A stretch of DNA of 64,000 nt from Octopus sinensis (lineage: Eukaryota). This document shows, in pieces, positions 11,179-40,700 of the stretch. The stretch is taken from positions 111,042,001-111,106,000 of the forward strand of contig NC_043003.1 of NCBI RefSeq assembly GCF_006345805.1, written 5' to 3'. The translations under genes were made by a program, and so were the position numbers. Below the pieces are notes generated by a model. The model was not told the origin of the DNA. It did not search any database and was given only the letters and a program-made list of their open reading frames with translations. The stretch's first letter is position 1. Each line of letters opens with the position of its first letter.

Positions 11179-11370
11179 TAGCTATATACATCCATCTTTG
11201 TTTATCACTAGAGTTTGGTTCAAATTGAAAATATTGTGATGAATGAATCCTCTCCAGACACTTGGTCAATGGAATGAATGCTGAGACTCATTGATGTCAG
11301 TCGTTGACCACTGCTTCAAAGCTTCCACTGTTATATATTTTTTAAAATCATCTCTACCCTTTCCTTATTC

Positions 11371-11472
11371 TGGACACTAAAGAAAGCTGACCAGAAGAGA
11401 ATTAATGCTTTCGAGCTTTGGTGTTGGAGAAGACTTTTACGGATTCCATGGACAGCGAGGCTCACCAATGGA
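11371..11472 (+). mobile_element. BovB-like RTE LINE fragment
   Basis: Translates WTLKKADQKRINAFELWCWRRLLRIPWTARLTN, a characteristic RTE/BovB C-terminal motif. Confidence 0.8.
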
Positions 11473-11479
11473 GAAGCAG

Positions 11480-12832
11480 ATCAGGCCAAAAATGTCGTAA
11501 TCAGTAGGAAGGTAGACAAATCACAAACGCCTTCAGGTAGATGGCCCTGCTCGATCTGTAGAAAAGGTGTAGGTAGAAACTCTATAAGATGCACCAAGTG
11601 TAAGCTATGGACACATAAGAGATGCAGCAATGTCAAAGGAAGGCTAACTAGGAAGATGGTTTTTGTATGTGGCAGATGCTGAGGAACAATAAACACTGAA
11701 AATGCTCTGAGACCAACTTCCGTCACTTTCCAGGGAGAAAAACTAGAAATAGTTGATAGTTTCCGTTACCTAGGTGACTAAGTCAGCAGCGGGGCGGGTG
11801 TGCTGAAAGTGTAACTGCTAGAGTAAGAATAGCTTGGGCACAGTTCAGAGAGCTCTTACCTCTGCTGGTGACAAAATGCCTCTCGCACAGAGTGAAAGGC
11901 AGACTGTATGATGCGTGTGTACGAACAGCCATGCTACATGGCAGTGAAACATGGGCCGTGACTGCTGAGGATATGCGTAAGCTCGCAAGAAATGAAGCCA
12001 GTATGCTCCGATGGATGTGTAATGTCAGTGTTCATAATCGACAGAGTGTAAGTACCTTGAGAGAAAAGCTGGACCTTAGAAGCATCAGTTGTGGTGTGCA
12101 AGAGAGACGATTGCGCTGGTATGGTCATGTGGCAAGAATGGATGAAGATAGTTGTGTGAAAAAGTGCCACATCCTAGCGTTTGAGGGAACCTGTGGAAGA
12201 GGCAGACCCAGGAAAACCTGGAATGAGGTGGTGAAGCACAACCTTCGAACTTTAGGTCTCACTGAGGAAATGACTAGAGACCGAGTCCTCTGGAAGTGTG
12301 CTGTGCGCGAGAAGACCCGGCAGGACAAGTGAGTCCATAACCCGTGGCCTTCTACTTGGGATGGAGCCATTCTACGTATGCATACCTTCCCTTCTTGGGA
12401 CACAAAACTCTACTTGTGAAGACCCGTTAAGGCAAGTGAGGATCAGAATCGAAATCGATCAATGGAAATTGCGGATGTGCTACCAGTGCCGGTGGCATGT
12501 AAGAGAACCTTCCGTTTCGCGACCGTTGCCAGCACCGCCTCGTTTCGTGTTCGTTGCCAGCCTCGCCTGGCCCTTGTGCCGGTGGCACATAAAAAGCATC
12601 ATCCGTTCGTGGCCGTTTGCCAGCTCTGTCTGGCACCTGTGCGGGTGGCACGTAAAAAGCACCCACTACACTCACGGAGTGGTTGGCGTTAGGAAGGGCA
12701 TCCAGCCGTAGAAACACTGCCAGATTTGACCGGGCCTGATGAAGCCTTCTGGCTTCACAGACCCCAGTAGAACCGTCCAACCCATGCTAGCATGGAAAAC
12801 GGATGCTAAACGACGATGATGATGATGATGAT
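11480..12832 (+). mobile_element. 5'-truncated RTE-clade LINE with a PHD-like finger and (GAT)n tail
   Basis: WPCSICRKGVGRNSIRCTKCKLWTHKRC..FVCGRC, LEIVDSFRYLGD, and ORF 11868..12332 (KGRLYDACVRTAMLHGSETW..RRLRWYGHV..GRGRPRKTW). The 3' UTR ends in gatgatgatgat. Confidence 0.9.
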
Positions 12833-15560: not shown

Positions 15561-15759
15561 ACTTAGAATAACTTAGAAAGGTTTTGGCCAGTATTGGCCC
15601 AGGCCATGTCTAACTTAATAGCACCACCTGGGAAGTGGAATGCTTACAGCACCTAGGGTTCCCAAGCGGTCACCCATCTAATTACTAACTAGGCTCGATG
15701 TTGCTTAACTTCGGTGATCGGACGAGAACCGGTGCTTTCAACGTGATATGGCCGTAAGC
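15561..15759 (-). mobile_element. 5S rRNA-derived SINE (SINE3-type) with a LINE-derived 3' tail
   Basis: 15641-15759 is a 119-nt 5S-like sequence (gcttacggc..gctgtaagc terminal stem, box A cgaagttaagc, box C gatgggtgacc). It has no oligo-T terminator and is followed by a tail matching 63162-63226. Inserted in (TA)n. Confidence 0.85.
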
Positions 15760-25224: not shown

Positions 25225-25257
<33 letters not shown>

Positions 25258-25340
25258 TATTTAGACAAAACCCTATTTTGCAAAACAAACAAGGAAAGAC
25301 TTAATCAATACATAAAATTAATAAATAGTCAAAAAAACCG

Positions 25341-25380
25341 CCACTACAATCGTTTCTTGTCATCGACAATCTTCAGGTGG
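25341..25380 (-). ncRNA. Minimal type I hammerhead ribozyme motif
   Basis: ccac CTGAAGA TTGTC gat GACAA GAAA C-gatt-G TA gtgg. Confidence 0.8.
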
Positions 25381-25437
25381 ACTTCCAATAATTCAGTTAC
25401 AAATCACTTCATAATTTGTAACTGAATTATTGGAAGT

Positions 25438-25481
25438 CCACCTGAAGATTGTCGATCAAGACAAGAAACACGATGTAGTGG
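25438..25481 (+). ncRNA. Minimal type I hammerhead ribozyme motif
   Basis: ccac CTGAAGA TTGTC gatcaa GACAA GAAA C-acgat-G TA gtgg. Confidence 0.8.
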
Positions 25482-25653
25482 CGGTTTTTTTGACTATTTA
25501 TTAAATTTTATGTATGATTAAGTCTTTATGTTTGTTTTGCCAAAATAGTGGTTTTGTCTCAAATAATATTTTATAAATTTTACTATAAAATGGATTAATC
25601 CTAAATCTGATTTTTTCCCGTAAATTTGGATATATTCCCTAATATTTATTATT

Positions 25654-25685
<32 letters not shown>

Positions 25686-25790
25686 CGTATGTATATATAT
25701 ATAATATATATATATATATATGTATATATATTCATCTATATTTCTGCCTGTCTTTCTGTCTCCCTTTATAAATATATAATATATATTATA

Positions 25791-28400: not shown

Positions 28401-31400
28401 TTTTTTTCTTCTTTCAAATTTGCTTCCATTTCTTGCCGAGTGTCTTCCTGACTCCTAGGGCAAAGAAACTCATAGTATACATTGGTAGGCCATTAAACTA
28501 AACTCAATAGTTCGTTCTTTTTTTATAAGTTAAATTAAAATACATGAGCAGTAACAGTTCTCACATCGACAATGCTCTTCTCAATACGTGTGATGTACCA
28601 GTTAAGACAATCTTTTGCACTTCTTGCAGGGATGGTAAGCCAAGGATCATTCTCATATAATTTTCGGTTCCCTTCTTGATCATTCCTAGTGCTCCTACGA
28701 TCACTGGTATTGTAACCGCCTTGAGATGCCACATTTTCTCAATTTCAATGAGTAGGTCTTTATATTTTCTGAGCTTGTCAAACTCTTTCGCTGAGATATT
28801 ATGATCACAGGGGATGCTCATGTCGATCGATAAGCAAACTTTATTGTTTTGGTCTTTCACAACCTTGATGGTTCGGTCTGTATGTACTGGAAAGTCCCAC
28901 AGAATGGTTACATTTTCTCCTTCAGTTACAGCCTCAGGGTGGTGATTATACCACTTGTCGGCAGTTTTGATATTGTAATGCCGACTTATTAGCCACTGGA
29001 GATATTAGCCAACTCTGTCATGTCTTAATTTATACTCCACTGGTGCTAAGACTTTACATCCAGAGATTAGGTGGTCCACTGTTTCAATCACGTCGTTGCA
29101 GATTCGGCATGTTGGGTATGCTCCATTTTTCATCACATTGGCCTGGTAGTTCCGGGTTAATAGGATTTGATCTTGAGCAGCCAGGATGAAACCTTCGCTC
29201 TCTGCTTTTAGCCCTGAGCTCCGTAGCCACTGATCGGTTTGCTTCTGGTCAACATCAGCTTGTTTGCTGCGGGTCACATATTTGCCGTGCAGAGGTTTCT
29301 CCTCCCACCTATCAGCCAAATGCTCGTGCGCTTTTTTCATTGCCAACAACAGTTGCCGTACTTCCCTCGGGTTGTTCAGTTTGGGTATCCTGCACGAGAT
29401 CAATAGCAAATGTTTTGCTTTCCTTTATGATAGAATGAAGCTTCTTCCGTCTCTCGTGATTTTCCACGAGCTTTAGCATCCAGTCATTCGATATTTCGAG
29501 ATATTTGGCCAGTCCAATTGTGGTTGTTTTGTAAGCTAGTTCAAATTGGATCAGGCCTCGACCTCCTTGGGCTCTGGGAAGGTAAAGGCGATCTACGTCT
29601 GCCTTTGGGTGGTGCATCCTATTACAACTCATCAGCTTGCGTATTTTCCTATCTATATTCTTTACTTCACTCATATTCCAGTTCAACACATTGTAGCTAT
29701 AAGTAACAACTGGAACTGCTAAGGAATTTATAGCTAACACCTTGTTACGTGCATTTAGTTCAGATTTCAGGACTGCACGAACTCTCCTATAACATTCCTT
29801 CCTGATCTTCTCTTTCATGCTTGCATGCTGAATACCAGAGCCTTCATTTATCCCTAAATATTTGTATGTTTGTTCTTGCTCAAGCTCTCTTATGACTGTG
29901 TCAACATCTAACACGACTGAATTTGTAGTCTTCACTTTCCCTTACTGGAAAGTGGCCTTGGCACACTTCTCAAGTCCAAACTCCATCCCGATGTCATCGT
30001 TGAATGCTTTCACGGTGCGCAATAGGCCTTCAAGTTCATTATTGTCTTTACCATAAAGTTTTAAGTCATCCATATAAAATAGATGGCTTATTTTTTTATT
30101 GGCAATTTTATACCCATATCCTGTTCTGTTTAATTCACTTGTAAGGGGTATTAGGGCTATGCAGAATATTAAAGGTGAAAGTGAGTCACCTTGAAAAATT
30201 CCACAGTTGATGTTTATATTTTCTGAGGCAAGTACTCCATTAGAGTGGTATAATTGGAGATTCGTATTCCACAACGACATATTGTGCTTCAGGAAGTTTG
30301 AAATCACTGGGGAAATTTTGAAGATGTCCAGCGATCTCAAGATCCATGGATGCGGTATACTGTCGAAGGCCTTTTTATAGTCAATCCATGCGGTGCTGAG
30401 ATTTCTGCGCTTGTTGTGACAGTTCTCAAGGATCATACGATTGATTAGCAGTTGATCTTTGCATCCGTAAGAGCCTCGGCGGCACCCTTTTTGTTCAGTG
30501 GGGAAAATATCGTTCTTCTCCATGAATGCATATGTTTTCTCCGCCAGGATAGATGTTAGGATTTTATACGTGGTGGATAGACAGGTTATAGGCCGATAGT
30601 TTTTTGGAAGGTTGGTTTCGTTATTCTTTGGGAGTAGGTAAGTAATGCCACTTGCTAACCATTCAGGTGTTTTCTTTGGGTCTCTCATAATACCATTGAG
30701 CAGCTGAAGTAGCTTACCGTGTTGGCATGGGAGCGATGCGAGCCAGAAATTCGGCACCCTATCTTTACCGGGGGATTTCCAATTATGGGCCTTCGTGAGT
30801 GCCTTTCTTAGGTCTGCTATTGTGATGTCTTCCCATGCTTGTTGTTGTAAATTTTGGTAGGATCCTTCAGTTTGTATAATCCAGTCTGCATTTATGGTGT
30901 ACGTCTTCTTGTCACTCCAAATCCTTTTCCAAAAGTTTTGAACTTCTTGCATGGGAGGGGGGTCTTTAACGGTTACTTTCTCCTTCCCTATTTCTCTGTA
31001 GAATTTTTTGGCATTGGATGTGAACAGCTTATTTTGCTTGTAAAACTTGTTTCTCTTCTCAAATCTTCGTATTCTTTGGGCTTTTGCTTGGACTTTTTGT
31101 TTCAGCGTTTCTTTTATTGATATCAGTTCTTCTTGGTGAGGATCCAAATTTTCTCTTCATCTTTCTTCCTGTTCTGGATCTTACATCATTTCCACATATT
31201 AGTTCATTTAATATTGATATTTCCCCTCTCATAAATTCAATCACTTTTTCAATTTTACTTCTCCAGGTTTGATTTCTTCCCAGGTTTTGTTTTCTTTGTT
31301 TTTTCGGGGGCATACAGCTGGTTTCAATTGCCCTAGCAGAAGCGTAAATAATTTCATTTAACTCAGTAAAATCAGGTTTTAATTCTCGTATTATTTCATT

Positions 31401-32270
31401 TGTTACATAGTTGCCAATTTGGTTTTATTTTTTATTTTGGTTTGTATTTGAGAGTTTATGAAGTGGTTCTCTATCATTCATACTTGTATGTCTTACAACT
31501 TCAAGCGTATTTAGAATTTTCTGCCTCATTTCTGCCATAGACTCTCAGCAAATGCGAGATCTTCAGTTACTGTTGTTTTTTCGTTTTCCTGGCTATCTTT
31601 AACAGGTACAATAGAATTTCTGGTATCTTCAGGCCTTTGCGTACTTTGGTCAGATGGCAGTCTTTCAATTAAGCCTCGTGACGGGATATACTGTTCATCT
31701 GATTCTTCATTTCCTTTGTGTCTTATATTTATGTCATTTTCCGTTGCGTGCTTGATCGCGCTTATTTCACTGTCTGTGAGTCTGTTGTTTCTAAGGATAT
31801 CCCTCCTCACATTTGCTAATTTGTTCTTGTCCAAATAGGGCCTACTGTCTTGATTCCGTGTTCTCCATATACTGTAAGAGTTTGCGGTGTGTCTCTCTTG
31901 AGATGGCCTACCTAATGCATAGTAATAAGCGTATATTACTTCTTTATACTCTTCTCGGGTCCATTTGTTCCGCTTACATTTTTCTTTCTGTGGTGGTTGT
32001 GGTGGTGAACTTGGAGGGCTCGAGTTGGGGTATTTCCCGTTCAAGTGACCATCCATGTCCGTATTCGGAGAAGTGTTTGTGCCAGTTGATGACTTTTCGA
32101 TCCCATGCTGGCTCTTCCCTGGGGGGCGCGCTTCTAGATTAACCATAGGACAAGCGATTTGGTATACTGATTTAGTTTTCCTTTTAGTTTCCAAAAACAT
32201 TTTGGTGCTACGATAATGTTATCATTTTTTAGCTTTGATTGGCTCGTGGGGAGACGGCCATCATTGCCGT
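28401..32270 (-). mobile_element. Near full-length R4/Dong-type non-LTR retrotransposon (RT plus restriction-like endonuclease), frameshifted
   Basis: N-terminal KRNKWTREEY (31526..32200); RT with NYRPITCL, WIDYKKAFDS, GIFQGDSLSP, HLFYMDDLKLY (29942..31147); C-x2-C..H..SGC and RHD (29005..29409); RLE with IDMSIP..K..KY.DL (28561..28860). The 3' end runs into (TAA)n. Confidence 0.92.
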
Positions 32271-34868: not shown

Positions 34869-35035
34869 AGGGCAGGCGTATTTTTGTGGTAGGAAGTTTG
34901 CTTCTTAACCACATGGTTGCATGTTCAGTCCTACTGCGAGGCACCTTGCGCAAGAGCCTTCTTCTATATCCTACGGCAGACCAATGATTTCCGCATGGAC
35001 TTGGTAGACGGAAACTGAAAGAAGCCCGTTGCATA
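34869..35035 (+). mobile_element. tRNA-derived SINE, family 2
   Basis: gtggtaggaagtttgctt..aaccacatggtt..gttcagtcc..gcaccttg.gcaag..ggtagacggaaactgaaagaagcccgt. Confidence 0.75.
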
Positions 35036-35126
35036 TATTCCTGCTTCCATATTTCCTGAGCGCCTATTAATAATAATACTGTAATTGTTCCACGTGTTGT
35101 TGTTTTTTTGTTTTCCCGTTTGGATT

Positions 35127-35164
<38 letters not shown>

Positions 35165-35975
35165 GGATACCCCTAGGAAATTGACAACCGTCAGGTTGGT
35201 ATCCATAGTTATGGTAAGACCGAAAGTTTTCATCATTTGGACAATGCCCTTCCTAAACCGATCTTGTGCTGGTCCATTAGTATTTGTCGTCATCTTTGTA
35301 AGTGGCGAAATATATGTCCGAAGAAGTCTTGCCCAACGAGTGGTAACAGTCCAATGAGATCGCATATGCCTACTCCATCATATGCCGACATGGTCACAGA
35401 TAGAACCTGCATTTTATATTGTGTCCATTTACAAGAATCTTATCTCTTTCTCTCCCTATATATCTCTCTCTATATATATATACATATTTTTATATATTTG
35501 TTTATATATTTTTCTTGCTTTATATATTTTTACATATTTTTTCTGTATATTACCTTTCACCCTGCATATTTTTGTGCATGTGCGTATATAGACATGTATA
35601 CGAACATAATTGTGCGCGTATAAGTATATAGATATATGTATACATATGTGCGTGTGCGTGTGTGTGTGTGTGCACGTATAGGCGTATGTGTGGGTATGCA
35701 TGTATGTGTTTCACGCGAGTGGACGTGAGCATATGCATATAGGCCCATGTACGTGGGTGTGCGTGCGTGCATGTGTATGTATGCAGGTGCGAGCATACGC
35801 GAATTCTATAAGCGTTTTTTTTTTCTTTATTTCTCTGACGAGATGCCGGAGCAGATTTCCGCCCAGTCACCCGAAATTCTGAGTTTTATTATGACAACCC
35901 AATAATTGCCATATTATAATACAGATACATTCCACTATTTGCATAATATCGAGTTCTCATTCATTTTTTTGTTGT
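35165..35975. mobile_element. PLE RT fragment (minus) joined to an oppositely oriented pLTR-like segment (plus)
   Basis: Minus-strand NGPAQDRFRKGIVQMMKTFGLTITMDTNLTVVNFL resembles a PLE RT after the DD motif. The plus strand has hammerhead-like CTGACGA..CGAAATTC at 35835-35879, and its UTR resembles the 13650-14450 spacer. Confidence 0.6.
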
Positions 35976-37772: not shown

Positions 37773-40700
37773 ATATATATTTAAAAAACAGGAGATGTCG
37801 AACACGAGTGGTGATATATAAAAAAGGAAATGAAGAAAATGCTGACAAATAATTGAAGTAATTTATGTAATTTAATTAGGTGAAAGTTCTTTTTACCGGT
37901 TGCGCATTTGTTATGCTTATCAAATATAAAAGAGAGATTAGAGTCTGTCTCTTATATGTGAAAAAAAAGAGGCTCCAGAGTTGTTTTGGATTTGCTTGCT
38001 TGGTTTCGCGCCTAAAATTTGATTGGTCATTATGAAGGGGTCACGTGAATGTTTGAATGGAAGTTGGTGTTGGGGTAAGAAAAAAGGCTCCAGAGAAGTT
38101 AAAATTTGGCTAGTGTCCCGCCTAAAATTTCTTATTGGCCATAATAAAGAGGTCACGTGAATGTTTAGAATTTTCGAAAATAGTGTTGTTGAAATTTCTT
38201 ATTGTTCAGGCTGGTCAGTAGACGTCATGTGGATATTTTAAATAGCTTTTTAGCGCGTAGTTAGGGAGTGTATTTTCCGCTTGACTGGATAAGTAAGTTC
38301 GTTTAGAACAGGGAGAGCTGTATGTATGTATGTGTGTGCGCGCGCGCGTGTGTGGTGTTTATATGTATGTTGGGGCGCGCGCGCGTGTATATATGTGTAT
38401 GTGTGGGTACAATTTTCAATATTTATAGTTCTGCTGGCCTTGTGCCTGTATCGGGAAGCAACGTATTTGTGTGAAGTCAATATTTACAGCCATTTCCAAA
38501 AATAGTGTTGGATGTTTTGCACCCGTATTCAATTATGTGTATGTGTGGAACCATATATTTGTGGTGTGTCATGGTGTTATATCTGGGTAAAGGTGTGTGT
38601 AGGGTGTGTGCAGTGTTTGTTGTGGGTTCGTGTTAGGGGCATGTGTTTAGATGGTCTGTATTTATTAATAAGGTGGGATTCCATGGTTATTCGCTGGGTA
38701 TGAGTGGCATTGTCTTTAAATTTGTAGAGGGGAAAGATTCTAAAATTGGGATGGAGTTGTGCGGCACAGGTATCAATATGTGCACTAAATGCTATTTTTC
38801 TATATTCCTGTATTTTTATTTGGGATCTGTGGACAGTCATGCGTTGGCGGAGGCTATTTTTTGTTTGGCCTATGTAGTGTTCATTACAGCCCGAGCAAGT
38901 TAAGACATATACTAGGTTTTCTGATGCGCATGTGAATTGTGTTTTACTGGTGAAACGTTGTCCTTGTTTAAAAAGGATTCCGGACCTTCTATTAGGTTGA
39001 TGCATATACCACAGTTGGGTCTATTGCATTTGTTTACTGTGGGTTTAGTTGTTGTGGTTGGCAGTACTTTGGCATTTGTTAGGATGTTTTCAATGATTTG
39101 GGTTGCCTTTTGCTCTTTATGATTTCGTGTGTTAGGAGGATTTGGTTCATTCTATGGTCCTTTTGTAATACAGGAATGTTCTGGAGGATGGTGTCAAAAG
39201 CTTCATTGTTCAGGGGGTTGTATGTAGAGATGTATGTAGAGTATGGGGTTTCGATGTAACAGGTTTAGGGCGTCTAAGTTCCTGCGTGCTGAGTTTTAGG
39301 GCGCGTTGGATCCCATTGTCAATTAGTGACGTGGGGTAATCCCTGCTTGTTAATGTGCCCTTGAGTTCTTGTAGACGTAAGAGACGGGTGTTTTTATATG
39401 GAGACTATAGTGCAAATTCTCTTGGCTAAGTTGTAGGGAATGTTAATTTTAACGTGTCTAGGGTGGCATGAATTGAAAGGGAGGTATTGCTTGGAGTCTG
39501 TGGGCTTGTAGTATATGTCTGTTTCTATTTTTTTGTTGTGAATTTTAATGAGGATGTCGAGGAAGGGAATTTGTTGAGGGCTGTATTCCATTGTGAAAAT
39601 AATGTTTGTGTTGAGCCCATTTATAAGAGTGTGAATTCGTTAAGCTTCTCGACGGTTTCGGGCCAAAGGATGAAGCAGTCATCAAGATATCTCTTCCAGT
39701 TCTTCTCTATGTGTGTGTGGAGAGTGGTGCCAAATTGGTTAAGAACGTTATTATAGAGGGTGATTTCCAGGTATCCCATGACTAAGTTGGCGTAAGTAGG
39801 AGCTGTTTTCGTTCCCATTGCCGTCCCTGATTTCTGTCTGCAGAATTTGTTGTTGAAGGTGAAGAAATTATTCTCTAAGATGAATTTGAGTCCTTCTAAA
39901 ATAAATTCCTTTTTGATGCGGTGTGGGAGTTCGTTGGAGTAATTATCCAGCCAGAATTGGATAGCTTCTATTCCTAGGTTGTGGGGGCTGTTGGAGTAAA
40001 GATTGACTACATCGAATGTTACTAGCAGGGTTTGTTCAGCAAGAAGTGTATTGGGGAGGTGGTTGAGCATATCTAGATCGTCCCTTATGTAGCTTTTAAT
40101 GTGTTTGAGGAACGGCTTGAGAAGGGTATCAATGAAGTTGCTAAGGCGGTGGGTTCGCAAGCGGGACCTGCTATTATAGGTCTCAATTTGAGGTCATTTG
40201 GTGAGGGGACATTGATTACAGAGTTTGTGGCTTCCTTGCATGCCTTACTTATTAATTCGCTTTTATGAATTTTGGGAATACCGTAGAAGAGGCTGGTTTT
40301 ACTAGTGAATTTTGTGATGAAGTGAATTCTTTGTTAGTGAGTTCTTCTTTGTGGGGGTTGATCAGGGTTTTTAAGTTTCTCATAATTTTCTGTTGATTGT
40401 AGTGTTCAGCCTTTTCGTAATATGTTCCATTTTCCAAGGTGGAGAGTGCTAAGTTGATATAGTATTCTGTCTCCATAGCAGTACCCACACACATACACAT
40501 ATATACACGCGCGCGCGCCCCAACATACATATAAACACACACACACGCGCGCGCGCACACACATACATACATACAGCTCTCCCTGTTCTAAACGAACTTA
40601 CTTATCCAGTCAAGCGGAAAATACACTCCCTAACTACGCGCTAAAAAGCTATTTAAAATATCCACATGACGTCTACTGACCAGCCTGAACAATAAGAAAT

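What the first reader, a model, noticed from the sequence alone, without database searches (positions are those of the whole stretch)
25247..25655. Hairpin of about 330 bp carrying two back-to-back hammerheads
Seen: arms of about 160 bp with a 9-nt loop, each with a compact 40-44-nt hammerhead on opposite strands. Differences between the two ribozyme copies fall in loops II and III, while the core and helices are identical. Inference: a transcript from either strand contains one ribozyme plus its antisense, so cleavage would compete with hairpin formation. On each strand the antisense arm is transcribed first, which would favour silencing. The structure is reminiscent of ambisense viroid-like RNAs but more probably arises by PLE inversion.
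Basis: partly seen in the sequence, partly recalled or inferred. Interest (0 to 1): 0.7.

Follow-up and report, generated by a model that had tools for sequence, protein, structure and literature searches.

The report
Spliced Penelope retroelement head-to-head stub
The hairpin is two back-to-back, intron-free copies of the very start of a Penelope-type jumping gene, likely a dead by-product copied twice from one spliced RNA, and its many siblings in this genome offer a testable clue to why full-length Penelope elements keep their introns.

Summary
The hairpin and both minimal type I hammerheads are real. They are two head-to-head copies of the spliced 5' end (23-nt exon 1 joined to the hammerhead-bearing exon 2) of a Penelope-like retroelement (PLE) with Hydra-clade motifs, inserted in (TA)n. 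Long copies carry the same exons around a 1.3-1.8 kb GT-AG intron. The genome holds 1,395 exact spliced junctions against 1,153 unspliced. Spliced arms stop at an Initiator-like A (47 of 51); unspliced arms run past it (38 of 40). Head-to-head pairs never mix splice states (27+24, 0 mixed) and usually end at two fixed sites about 84 nt apart (49 of 55). Likely mechanism: two reverse transcriptions of one sense RNA, primed on opposite strands, then joined at their ends. The inner fold-back point varies, so nothing points to a selected or viroid-like hairpin. The loop differences are likely assembly indel errors. Inverted PLE ends with opposite-strand hammerheads are published; spliced genomic stubs were not found in five searches, though this scan noted one in another genome (e1-9506236). 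Cleavage and expression are untested.

The parts
25226..25247 (.). (TA)n microsatellite target, left side
   Evidence: sequence; most family copies inspected sit in (TA)n
25248..25404 (-). Short arm: copy of the spliced PLE 5' end, from about position 9 of exon 1 to the near (short) fixed 3' end
25341..25380 (-). Minimal type I hammerhead; predicted cut between 25345 and 25344; 3-nt loop II deletion is window-specific
25405..25413 (.). 9-nt loop: simply the extra 5' end of the right arm that the left arm lacks
25406..25428 (+). Exon 1 (23 nt), starting at the A of an Initiator-like TCACTT; followed by GTAAGT in long copies
25428..25429 (+). Exon 1/exon 2 junction (1.3-1.8 kb GT-AG intron absent); mirror junction at 25389/25390 on the - strand
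25438..25481 (+). Minimal type I hammerhead; predicted cut after 25477 (GUA); loop III variant is window-specific
25482..25575 (+). Rest of exon 2 up to the near fixed 3' end (ends in a TA-like motif)
25576..25652 (+). One-sided tail (about 84 nt in the family) up to the far fixed 3' end; in full elements the ORF start codon follows about 55 nt later
25653..25729 (.). (TA)n microsatellite target, right side

Best explanation
The hairpin is two head-to-head, intron-free copies of the first 170 and 250 bases of a Penelope-like retroelement's transcription unit, likely made by two reverse transcriptions of one spliced sense RNA. Shown: the arms are exon 1 joined to exon 2; long copies carry the intron; arms end at two fixed 3' sites; spliced arms stop at one 5' base; paired arms share splice state and subfamily letters. 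Inferred: the element's RT-GIY-YIG protein (probably a dimer) nicks both strands of a (TA)n tract. It primes at the far site on one strand and the near site on the other, both sites having TA-like letters. Each copy runs to or near the RNA's capped 5' end, and the two cDNA 3' ends are joined through 0-6 shared bases. The RNA must be uncut by its hammerhead, since the arms read through the cut site. Inferred consequence: RNA started at the element's own start site is spliced and yields only these promoter-less stubs. Full-length copies come from read-through RNA that begins upstream and keeps the intron. This copy is likely dead, with each ribozyme locked in duplex if host transcription crosses it.
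For: Exon 1|GTAAGT ... TTTTAG|exon 2 in long copies, intron 1,290-1,838 nt. Exact counts: spliced junction 1,395, unspliced acceptor 1,153, donor 587. Spliced arms reaching the A: 265, of which only 16 go 7 nt further upstream; 47 of 51 inspected stop exactly at the A. Unspliced arms extend well upstream in 38 of 40. Copies continuing into the ORF: 14 unspliced, 0 spliced, 16 not reaching the junction, of the first 30 of 77. Head-to-head pairs on the first 177 Mb of contig C1: 27 spliced/spliced, 24 unspliced/unspliced, 0 mixed, about 25 mixed expected, p about 5e-16. 49 of 55 pairs are one long plus one short arm. The short arm reaches further 5' in 9 of 35 unequal pairs, so it cannot always be a copy of the long arm. 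Five subfamily-level variants are shared by both arms 56 times and one-sided 5 times in 58 pairs; 17 rare substitutions are shared. Parent ORF has RT, DKT, CxCX5C, YIG, CxxC and CxH motifs. In vitro precedent: two RT start sites defining the tail, both strands cut and extended, predicted dimer, uncut RNA the main substrate (PMC11167929).
Against: No RNA evidence: no listed holder is on record as RNA, so splicing and the start site are read from genomic copies only. The long arm reaches further 5' in 26 of 35 unequal pairs, a bias a symmetric model does not predict and snap-back does. 43 rare substitutions are one-sided against 17 shared. The cap signature is confounded: G precedes the A in 29 of 51 arms, but the partner arm explains it in 21. 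Concordance could reflect two RNAs from one source locus, not one molecule. Some spliced arms are solo (9 of 48). In the anole element priming was non-homologous, unlike the TA-like pairing I infer. No intact source copy was shown; the copy in L127 has frameshifts.
Confidence: 0.75

Rival explanations
1. One cDNA plus snap-back: a single reverse transcription from the far site runs to the RNA 5' end, folds on itself and is copied back to give the second arm.
For: The long arm reaches further 5' in 26 of 35 unequal pairs; the favoured junction can be read as a 2-bp fold-back; it explains splice-state and variant concordance at once. Self-priming was proposed for PLE palindromes (PMC3846280).
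Against: In 9 of 35 unequal pairs the tail-less arm holds 5' sequence the tailed arm lacks while the tailed arm holds the tail, so neither is a copy of the other; some tailed arms start beyond position 130. It does not explain why the second arm stops at a fixed site that solo copies also use.
Confidence: 0.15
2. Antisense-template self-priming, the published proposal for head-to-head PLE palindromes and intron retention.
For: Proposed in PMC3846280; it could still apply to the unspliced long copies, whose template was not observed.
Against: An antisense template is not spliced, yet 27 of 51 head-to-head pairs are spliced in both arms and stop at a sense start site. Long unspliced pairs use the same two 3' ends.
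Confidence: 0.04
3. A self-propagating non-autonomous hairpin element (SINE-, retrozyme- or viroid-like) whose two opposite hammerheads are under selection.
For: Many copies, one favoured junction (23 of 39), intact cores.
Against: Junctions vary and arms truncate independently; subfamily letters of stubs match those of long copies; stubs start at +1 with no upstream sequence; no tandem hammerhead units at this locus; loop differences look like errors.
Confidence: 0.05
4. A long-read fold-back chimera or assembly artefact.
For: The window copy is unusually indel-rich.
Against: The same asymmetric long+short layout recurs at dozens of inspected loci with different flanks; a read chimera would also mirror the flank, and here the flanks differ.
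Confidence: 0.01

Closest known systems
EN+ PLE insertions with an inverted 5'-truncated pLTR and a one-sided 30-40 bp tail (PMC8557442 passages; Adineta Pen2a_Av in PMC3846280 passages)
   Same: Head-to-head layout, one-sided tail, Inr-like TCACT, microhomology joins, (TA)n target, hammerhead in the pLTR, intron in the 5' leader
   Different: Both arms are intron-free and begin at the start site; no ORF; tail about 84 nt; intron 1.3-1.8 kb against 75 bp in Drosophila Penelope (PMC2377424 passages)
Hydra clade of PLEs (PMC8557442 section 11 and supplement tables)
   Same: DKT, CxCX5C linker, no CxxC inside the GIY-YIG core, CxxC and CxH near the C-terminus, hammerhead, (TA)n
   Different: KWK in place of RWK; unit about 5.6-6.5 kb against generally under 3 kb; hammerhead letters differ from all Hydra families in the part of the supplement read; no tree built
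Dual minimal hammerheads 100-700 bp apart on opposite strands (PMC4209133, parts 1-2 of 4 read)
   Different: The parts read do not report spliced genomic copies or pair concordance
Anolis Poseidon (PAc) in vitro (PMC11167929, parts 1-2 of 4 read)
   Same: Two internal RT start sites bounding the tail; both strands extended; uncut RNA used
   Different: There priming is non-homologous and the hammerhead overlaps the ORF start; here both sites have TA-like letters and the ORF starts about 230 nt after the cut site
Animal non-LTR retrozymes (bioRxiv 10.64898/2026.07.22.740005, part 1 of 5 read)
   Same: Non-coding, type I hammerhead, PLE-derived
   Different: Retrozymes are tandem direct repeats; this is an inverted pair of spliced mRNA starts

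Membership tests
EN+ Penelope-like element | Parent encodes PLE-type RT with C-terminal GIY-YIG endonuclease | tested here: met
   RT motifs and YIG read in the L065/L127 frames; 15 homologues at E<=1e-10. Pfam gave no RT or GIY-YIG hit for this protein.
EN+ Penelope-like element | pLTR with hammerhead; tandem or inverted arrangement; one-sided tail | tested here: met
EN+ Penelope-like element | Intron retained in retrotransposed copies | tested here: not met
   Not met for this copy and for 1,395 exact junctions; met for long copies
EN+ Penelope-like element | Target-site duplication | tested here: inconclusive
   Cannot be read inside (TA)n
Hydra clade | DKT motif; CxCX5C linker; CxxC and CxH near the end; CCHH absent | tested here: met
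   SDKT in the N-terminal frame, CTCRDKSNC, CYLC, CRH, single C between VVY and YIG
Hydra clade | N-terminal RWK motif | tested here: inconclusive
   KWK at the equivalent place; 8 of 15 homologues have [RK]W[KR] at residue 37
Hydra clade | (TA)n insertion preference and hammerhead | tested here: met
Hydra clade | Placement in an RT tree | not tested
   No reference proteins were aligned
Type I hammerhead ribozyme | Conserved core and three stems | tested here: met
   stem III is only 2 bp beyond the core pair; no Rfam hit at gathering score
Type I hammerhead ribozyme | Self-cleavage | not testable with these tools
   Genomic proxy unclear: 29 truncations at the cut window, 7 at an upstream control, 17 in the first 30 of 86 hits at a downstream control
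Non-LTR retrozyme | Two or more tandem direct units, each with a hammerhead | tested here: not met
   Inverted pair at this locus; L029/L030 is a tandem of whole hairpins
Ambisense viroid-like RNA | Circular RNA replicon with different ribozymes on each polarity | tested here: not met
   Both ribozymes are copies of one PLE motif in chromosomal DNA; circularity not testable

The most novel reading that the evidence does not exclude
Penelope-like elements do reverse-transcribe their spliced, capped mRNA, as often as unspliced RNA. Because priming is internal, near the 5' end, the product is only a 170-250 nt head-to-head stub made by an RT dimer from one sense RNA. Intron retention in full-length PLEs then follows from read-through templates alone, and the antisense-template model is unnecessary. 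This may hold across PLE clades.
Probability: 0.5. Interest if true: 0.7.

Novelty: new variant of a known kind. Interest (0 to 1): 0.55.

Why it matters
Why PLEs keep spliceosomal introns after retrotransposition, and how their head-to-head ends form, are stated as open (PMC8557442: significance unknown; PMC3846280: antisense versus unspliced sense template undecided). This young family records both RNA classes in more than a thousand genomic arms each and gives sharp, cheap tests. The individual hairpin is most likely inert. It also warns that ORF-less double-hammerhead hairpins in animal genomes are PLE debris, not viroid-like replicons.

Tried and rejected
Rfam at gathering score: only a 5S rRNA in the window. 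Pfam found no RT or GIY-YIG family for the parent ORF piece; the assignment rests on motifs and homologues. The PLE fragments in the window at 38577-40193 are not shown to be the parent; the parent was found elsewhere. Sequencing runs: no RNA holder listed on record, which is no evidence either way. Contigs of 4 runs laid on 25380-25650 carry family letters at the window's indels and depth falls sharply there, for example 1,889 against 804,887 in neighbouring bins of run X1; this fits assembly error but does not show these runs hold this locus. Hammerhead-cut templates: 29 of 51 pattern hits at the cut window are true truncations, against 7 of 24 upstream and 17 of the first 30 of 86 downstream (7 from one tandem array); no clear peak, at most 1-2% of arms. 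The cap-derived G is suggestive only. The first constrained-fold energy was a length slip, redone. The sequence look-up in earlier scan findings returned only an unrelated note. Rejected: selected loop variation, fixed fold-back point, retrozyme, read chimera.

Full report
Observation. The window holds an inverted repeat, 25248-25404 against 25414-25575, with a 9-nt loop, between (TA)n tracts. A custom scan of both strands of the window finds two minimal type I hammerheads, one per arm, pointing outward; Rfam does not score them. Reading the alignment, the arms differ by 9 events, 3 in ribozyme loops and 6 outside, nearly all indels. The window's right arm has 10 indels against a typical copy, where the other 28 loci have a median of 1. 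Contigs of four public runs carry the family letters at these places. The loop pattern is therefore likely consensus error; this is an inference, and PCR would settle it.

Family. The host is an animal with a 2.7-Gb assembly; no call named it. The hammerhead core has 2,501 exact matches. The short copies inspected sit mostly in (TA)n and end at one of two fixed 3' sites about 84 nt apart. Of 55 head-to-head pairs among the loci then held, 49 join one long and one short arm, 4 join two long arms and 2 are unclear. The inner junction varies, with one favoured form.

Parent. [quoted passage not shown] Its DKT, CxCX5C, CxxC and CxH motifs, the lack of CCHH and the (TA)n target match the Hydra clade as described in PMC8557442 section 11. 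RWK reads KWK, the unit is longer than usual, and no tree was built. Its hammerhead letters differ from those of the Hydra families in the part of the supplement I read (part 2 of 59 plus one term search).

Key result. In long copies the 23-nt leader of the hairpin arms is followed by GTAAGT, then 1,290-1,838 nt, then TTTTAG and the hammerhead exon. The window's arms are thus exon 1 joined to exon 2. Exact counts are 1,395 spliced junctions, 1,153 unspliced acceptors (an earlier stricter pattern gave 710) and 587 donors. Of 265 spliced arms that reach the A of TCACTT, 16 extend 7 nt further, and 47 of 51 inspected stop exactly there (48 of the first 100 listed places fetched). In contrast 38 of 40 unspliced arms, from 40 of the first 100 listed donors, extend well upstream. 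Among the first 30 of 77 copies that continue from the tail into the ORF, 14 are unspliced, none spliced and 16 do not reach the junction. So two templates are recorded: start-site-initiated spliced RNA giving stubs, and upstream-initiated unspliced RNA giving long copies. Splicing itself is read from DNA copies; no RNA run on record was listed.

How the two arms arise. On the first 177 Mb of contig C1, head-to-head pairs are 27 spliced/spliced, 24 unspliced/unspliced and 0 mixed, against about 25 mixed expected. Five subfamily-level variants are shared by both arms 56 times and one-sided 5 times in 58 pairs; a sixth recurring variant was one-sided in all 3 cases; rare substitutions are shared 17 times and one-sided 43 times. 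In pairs chosen for reaching the start site, the long arm reaches further in 26, the short arm in 9, and 4 are equal; 9 of 48 loci had no adjacent partner by this test. The 9 short-first pairs cannot come from fold-back copying of one cDNA, because each arm holds sequence the other lacks. The simplest account (inferred) is two reverse transcriptions of one sense RNA, primed on opposite strands at the two sites and joined by microhomology. This matches in vitro work on an anole PLE: two start sites bounding the tail, both strands extended, a predicted dimer and uncut RNA as main substrate (PMC11167929, parts 1-2 of 4). The 26:9 bias leaves room for snap-back in part of the cases.

The ribozymes. 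At least 1,395 arms read through the cut site, so their templates were uncut. Arms starting at the cut window number 29, against 7 at an upstream control and 17 in the first 30 of 86 hits at a downstream control, so cleavage in vivo is neither shown nor excluded. In the hairpin the duplex (about -205 kcal/mol) would outcompete the hammerhead fold (about -5). The stub starts at +1 and lacks upstream and intron sequence, so it is likely silent unless a host transcript crosses it.

What is known. Inverted 5'-truncated pLTRs with a one-sided tail are described (PMC8557442 passages; PMC3846280 passages and Discussion). Opposite-strand hammerhead pairs 100-700 bp apart are described (PMC4209133 parts 1-2 of 4). 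Intron retention is presented as characteristic and unexplained, with an antisense template proposed and an unspliced sense template left open. Five full-text searches did not surface a report of spliced genomic PLE stubs. The library lacks most subscription papers, including Arkhipova 2003 and Evgen'ev and Arkhipova 2005, which I did not see; supplements of the other papers were not read and may bear on this. The 2026 retrozyme preprint was read only in part 1 of 5. After forming this reading I found that the scan had reached the same one in another genome (e1-9506236), and the long+short two-arm pattern for other repeats in this genome; these are unchecked AI notes and leads only.

Verdict. 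A real, inert-looking by-product of a known class, in a spliced form that appears undescribed and that makes a standing mechanistic question testable. New variant of a known kind; interest 0.55.

Noticed in passing
window 15641-15759 (-): Full-length 5S rRNA match, 109 bits.
   Followed up: no
window 38577-40193 (-): Fragments of another Penelope-like element: RT (Pfam RVT_1, below cut-off) and GIY-YIG (above cut-off). A further PLE-like RT fragment may lie at 34964-35377 (-).
   Followed up: partly
window 28561-32218 (-) and 11308-12332 (+): Broken non-LTR retrotransposon ORFs with RT-like and endonuclease-like motifs; family names not tested.
   Followed up: no
L065:680-2362 (+), residues about 230-310: The parent ORF has an asparagine-rich low-complexity stretch after the RT core, like the N-rich inserts of Adineta Penelope ORFs (PMC3846280).
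   Followed up: no
L106-L108, L113-L119, L260-L266; G000:C30:9595566-9596522: Tandem arrays of 240-310-nt units spanning the tail and ORF start of this PLE; those inspected lack the hammerhead. A possible third, downstream priming site or rolling copy.
   Followed up: partly
one search list, e.g. G000:C1:5315850 and 5316675; L063: Many long copies carry exon 1 plus donor twice, 700-1,020 nt apart, and the intron contains diverged internal repeats.
   Followed up: no
L029/L030 (G000:C16:20.686-20.689 Mb): Direct tandem of the whole hairpin insertion with a 476-nt period.
   Followed up: no
L081-L096: 16 rare spliced copies that extend upstream of the start site, most by 10 nt or more: likely spliced read-through RNA.
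   Followed up: partly
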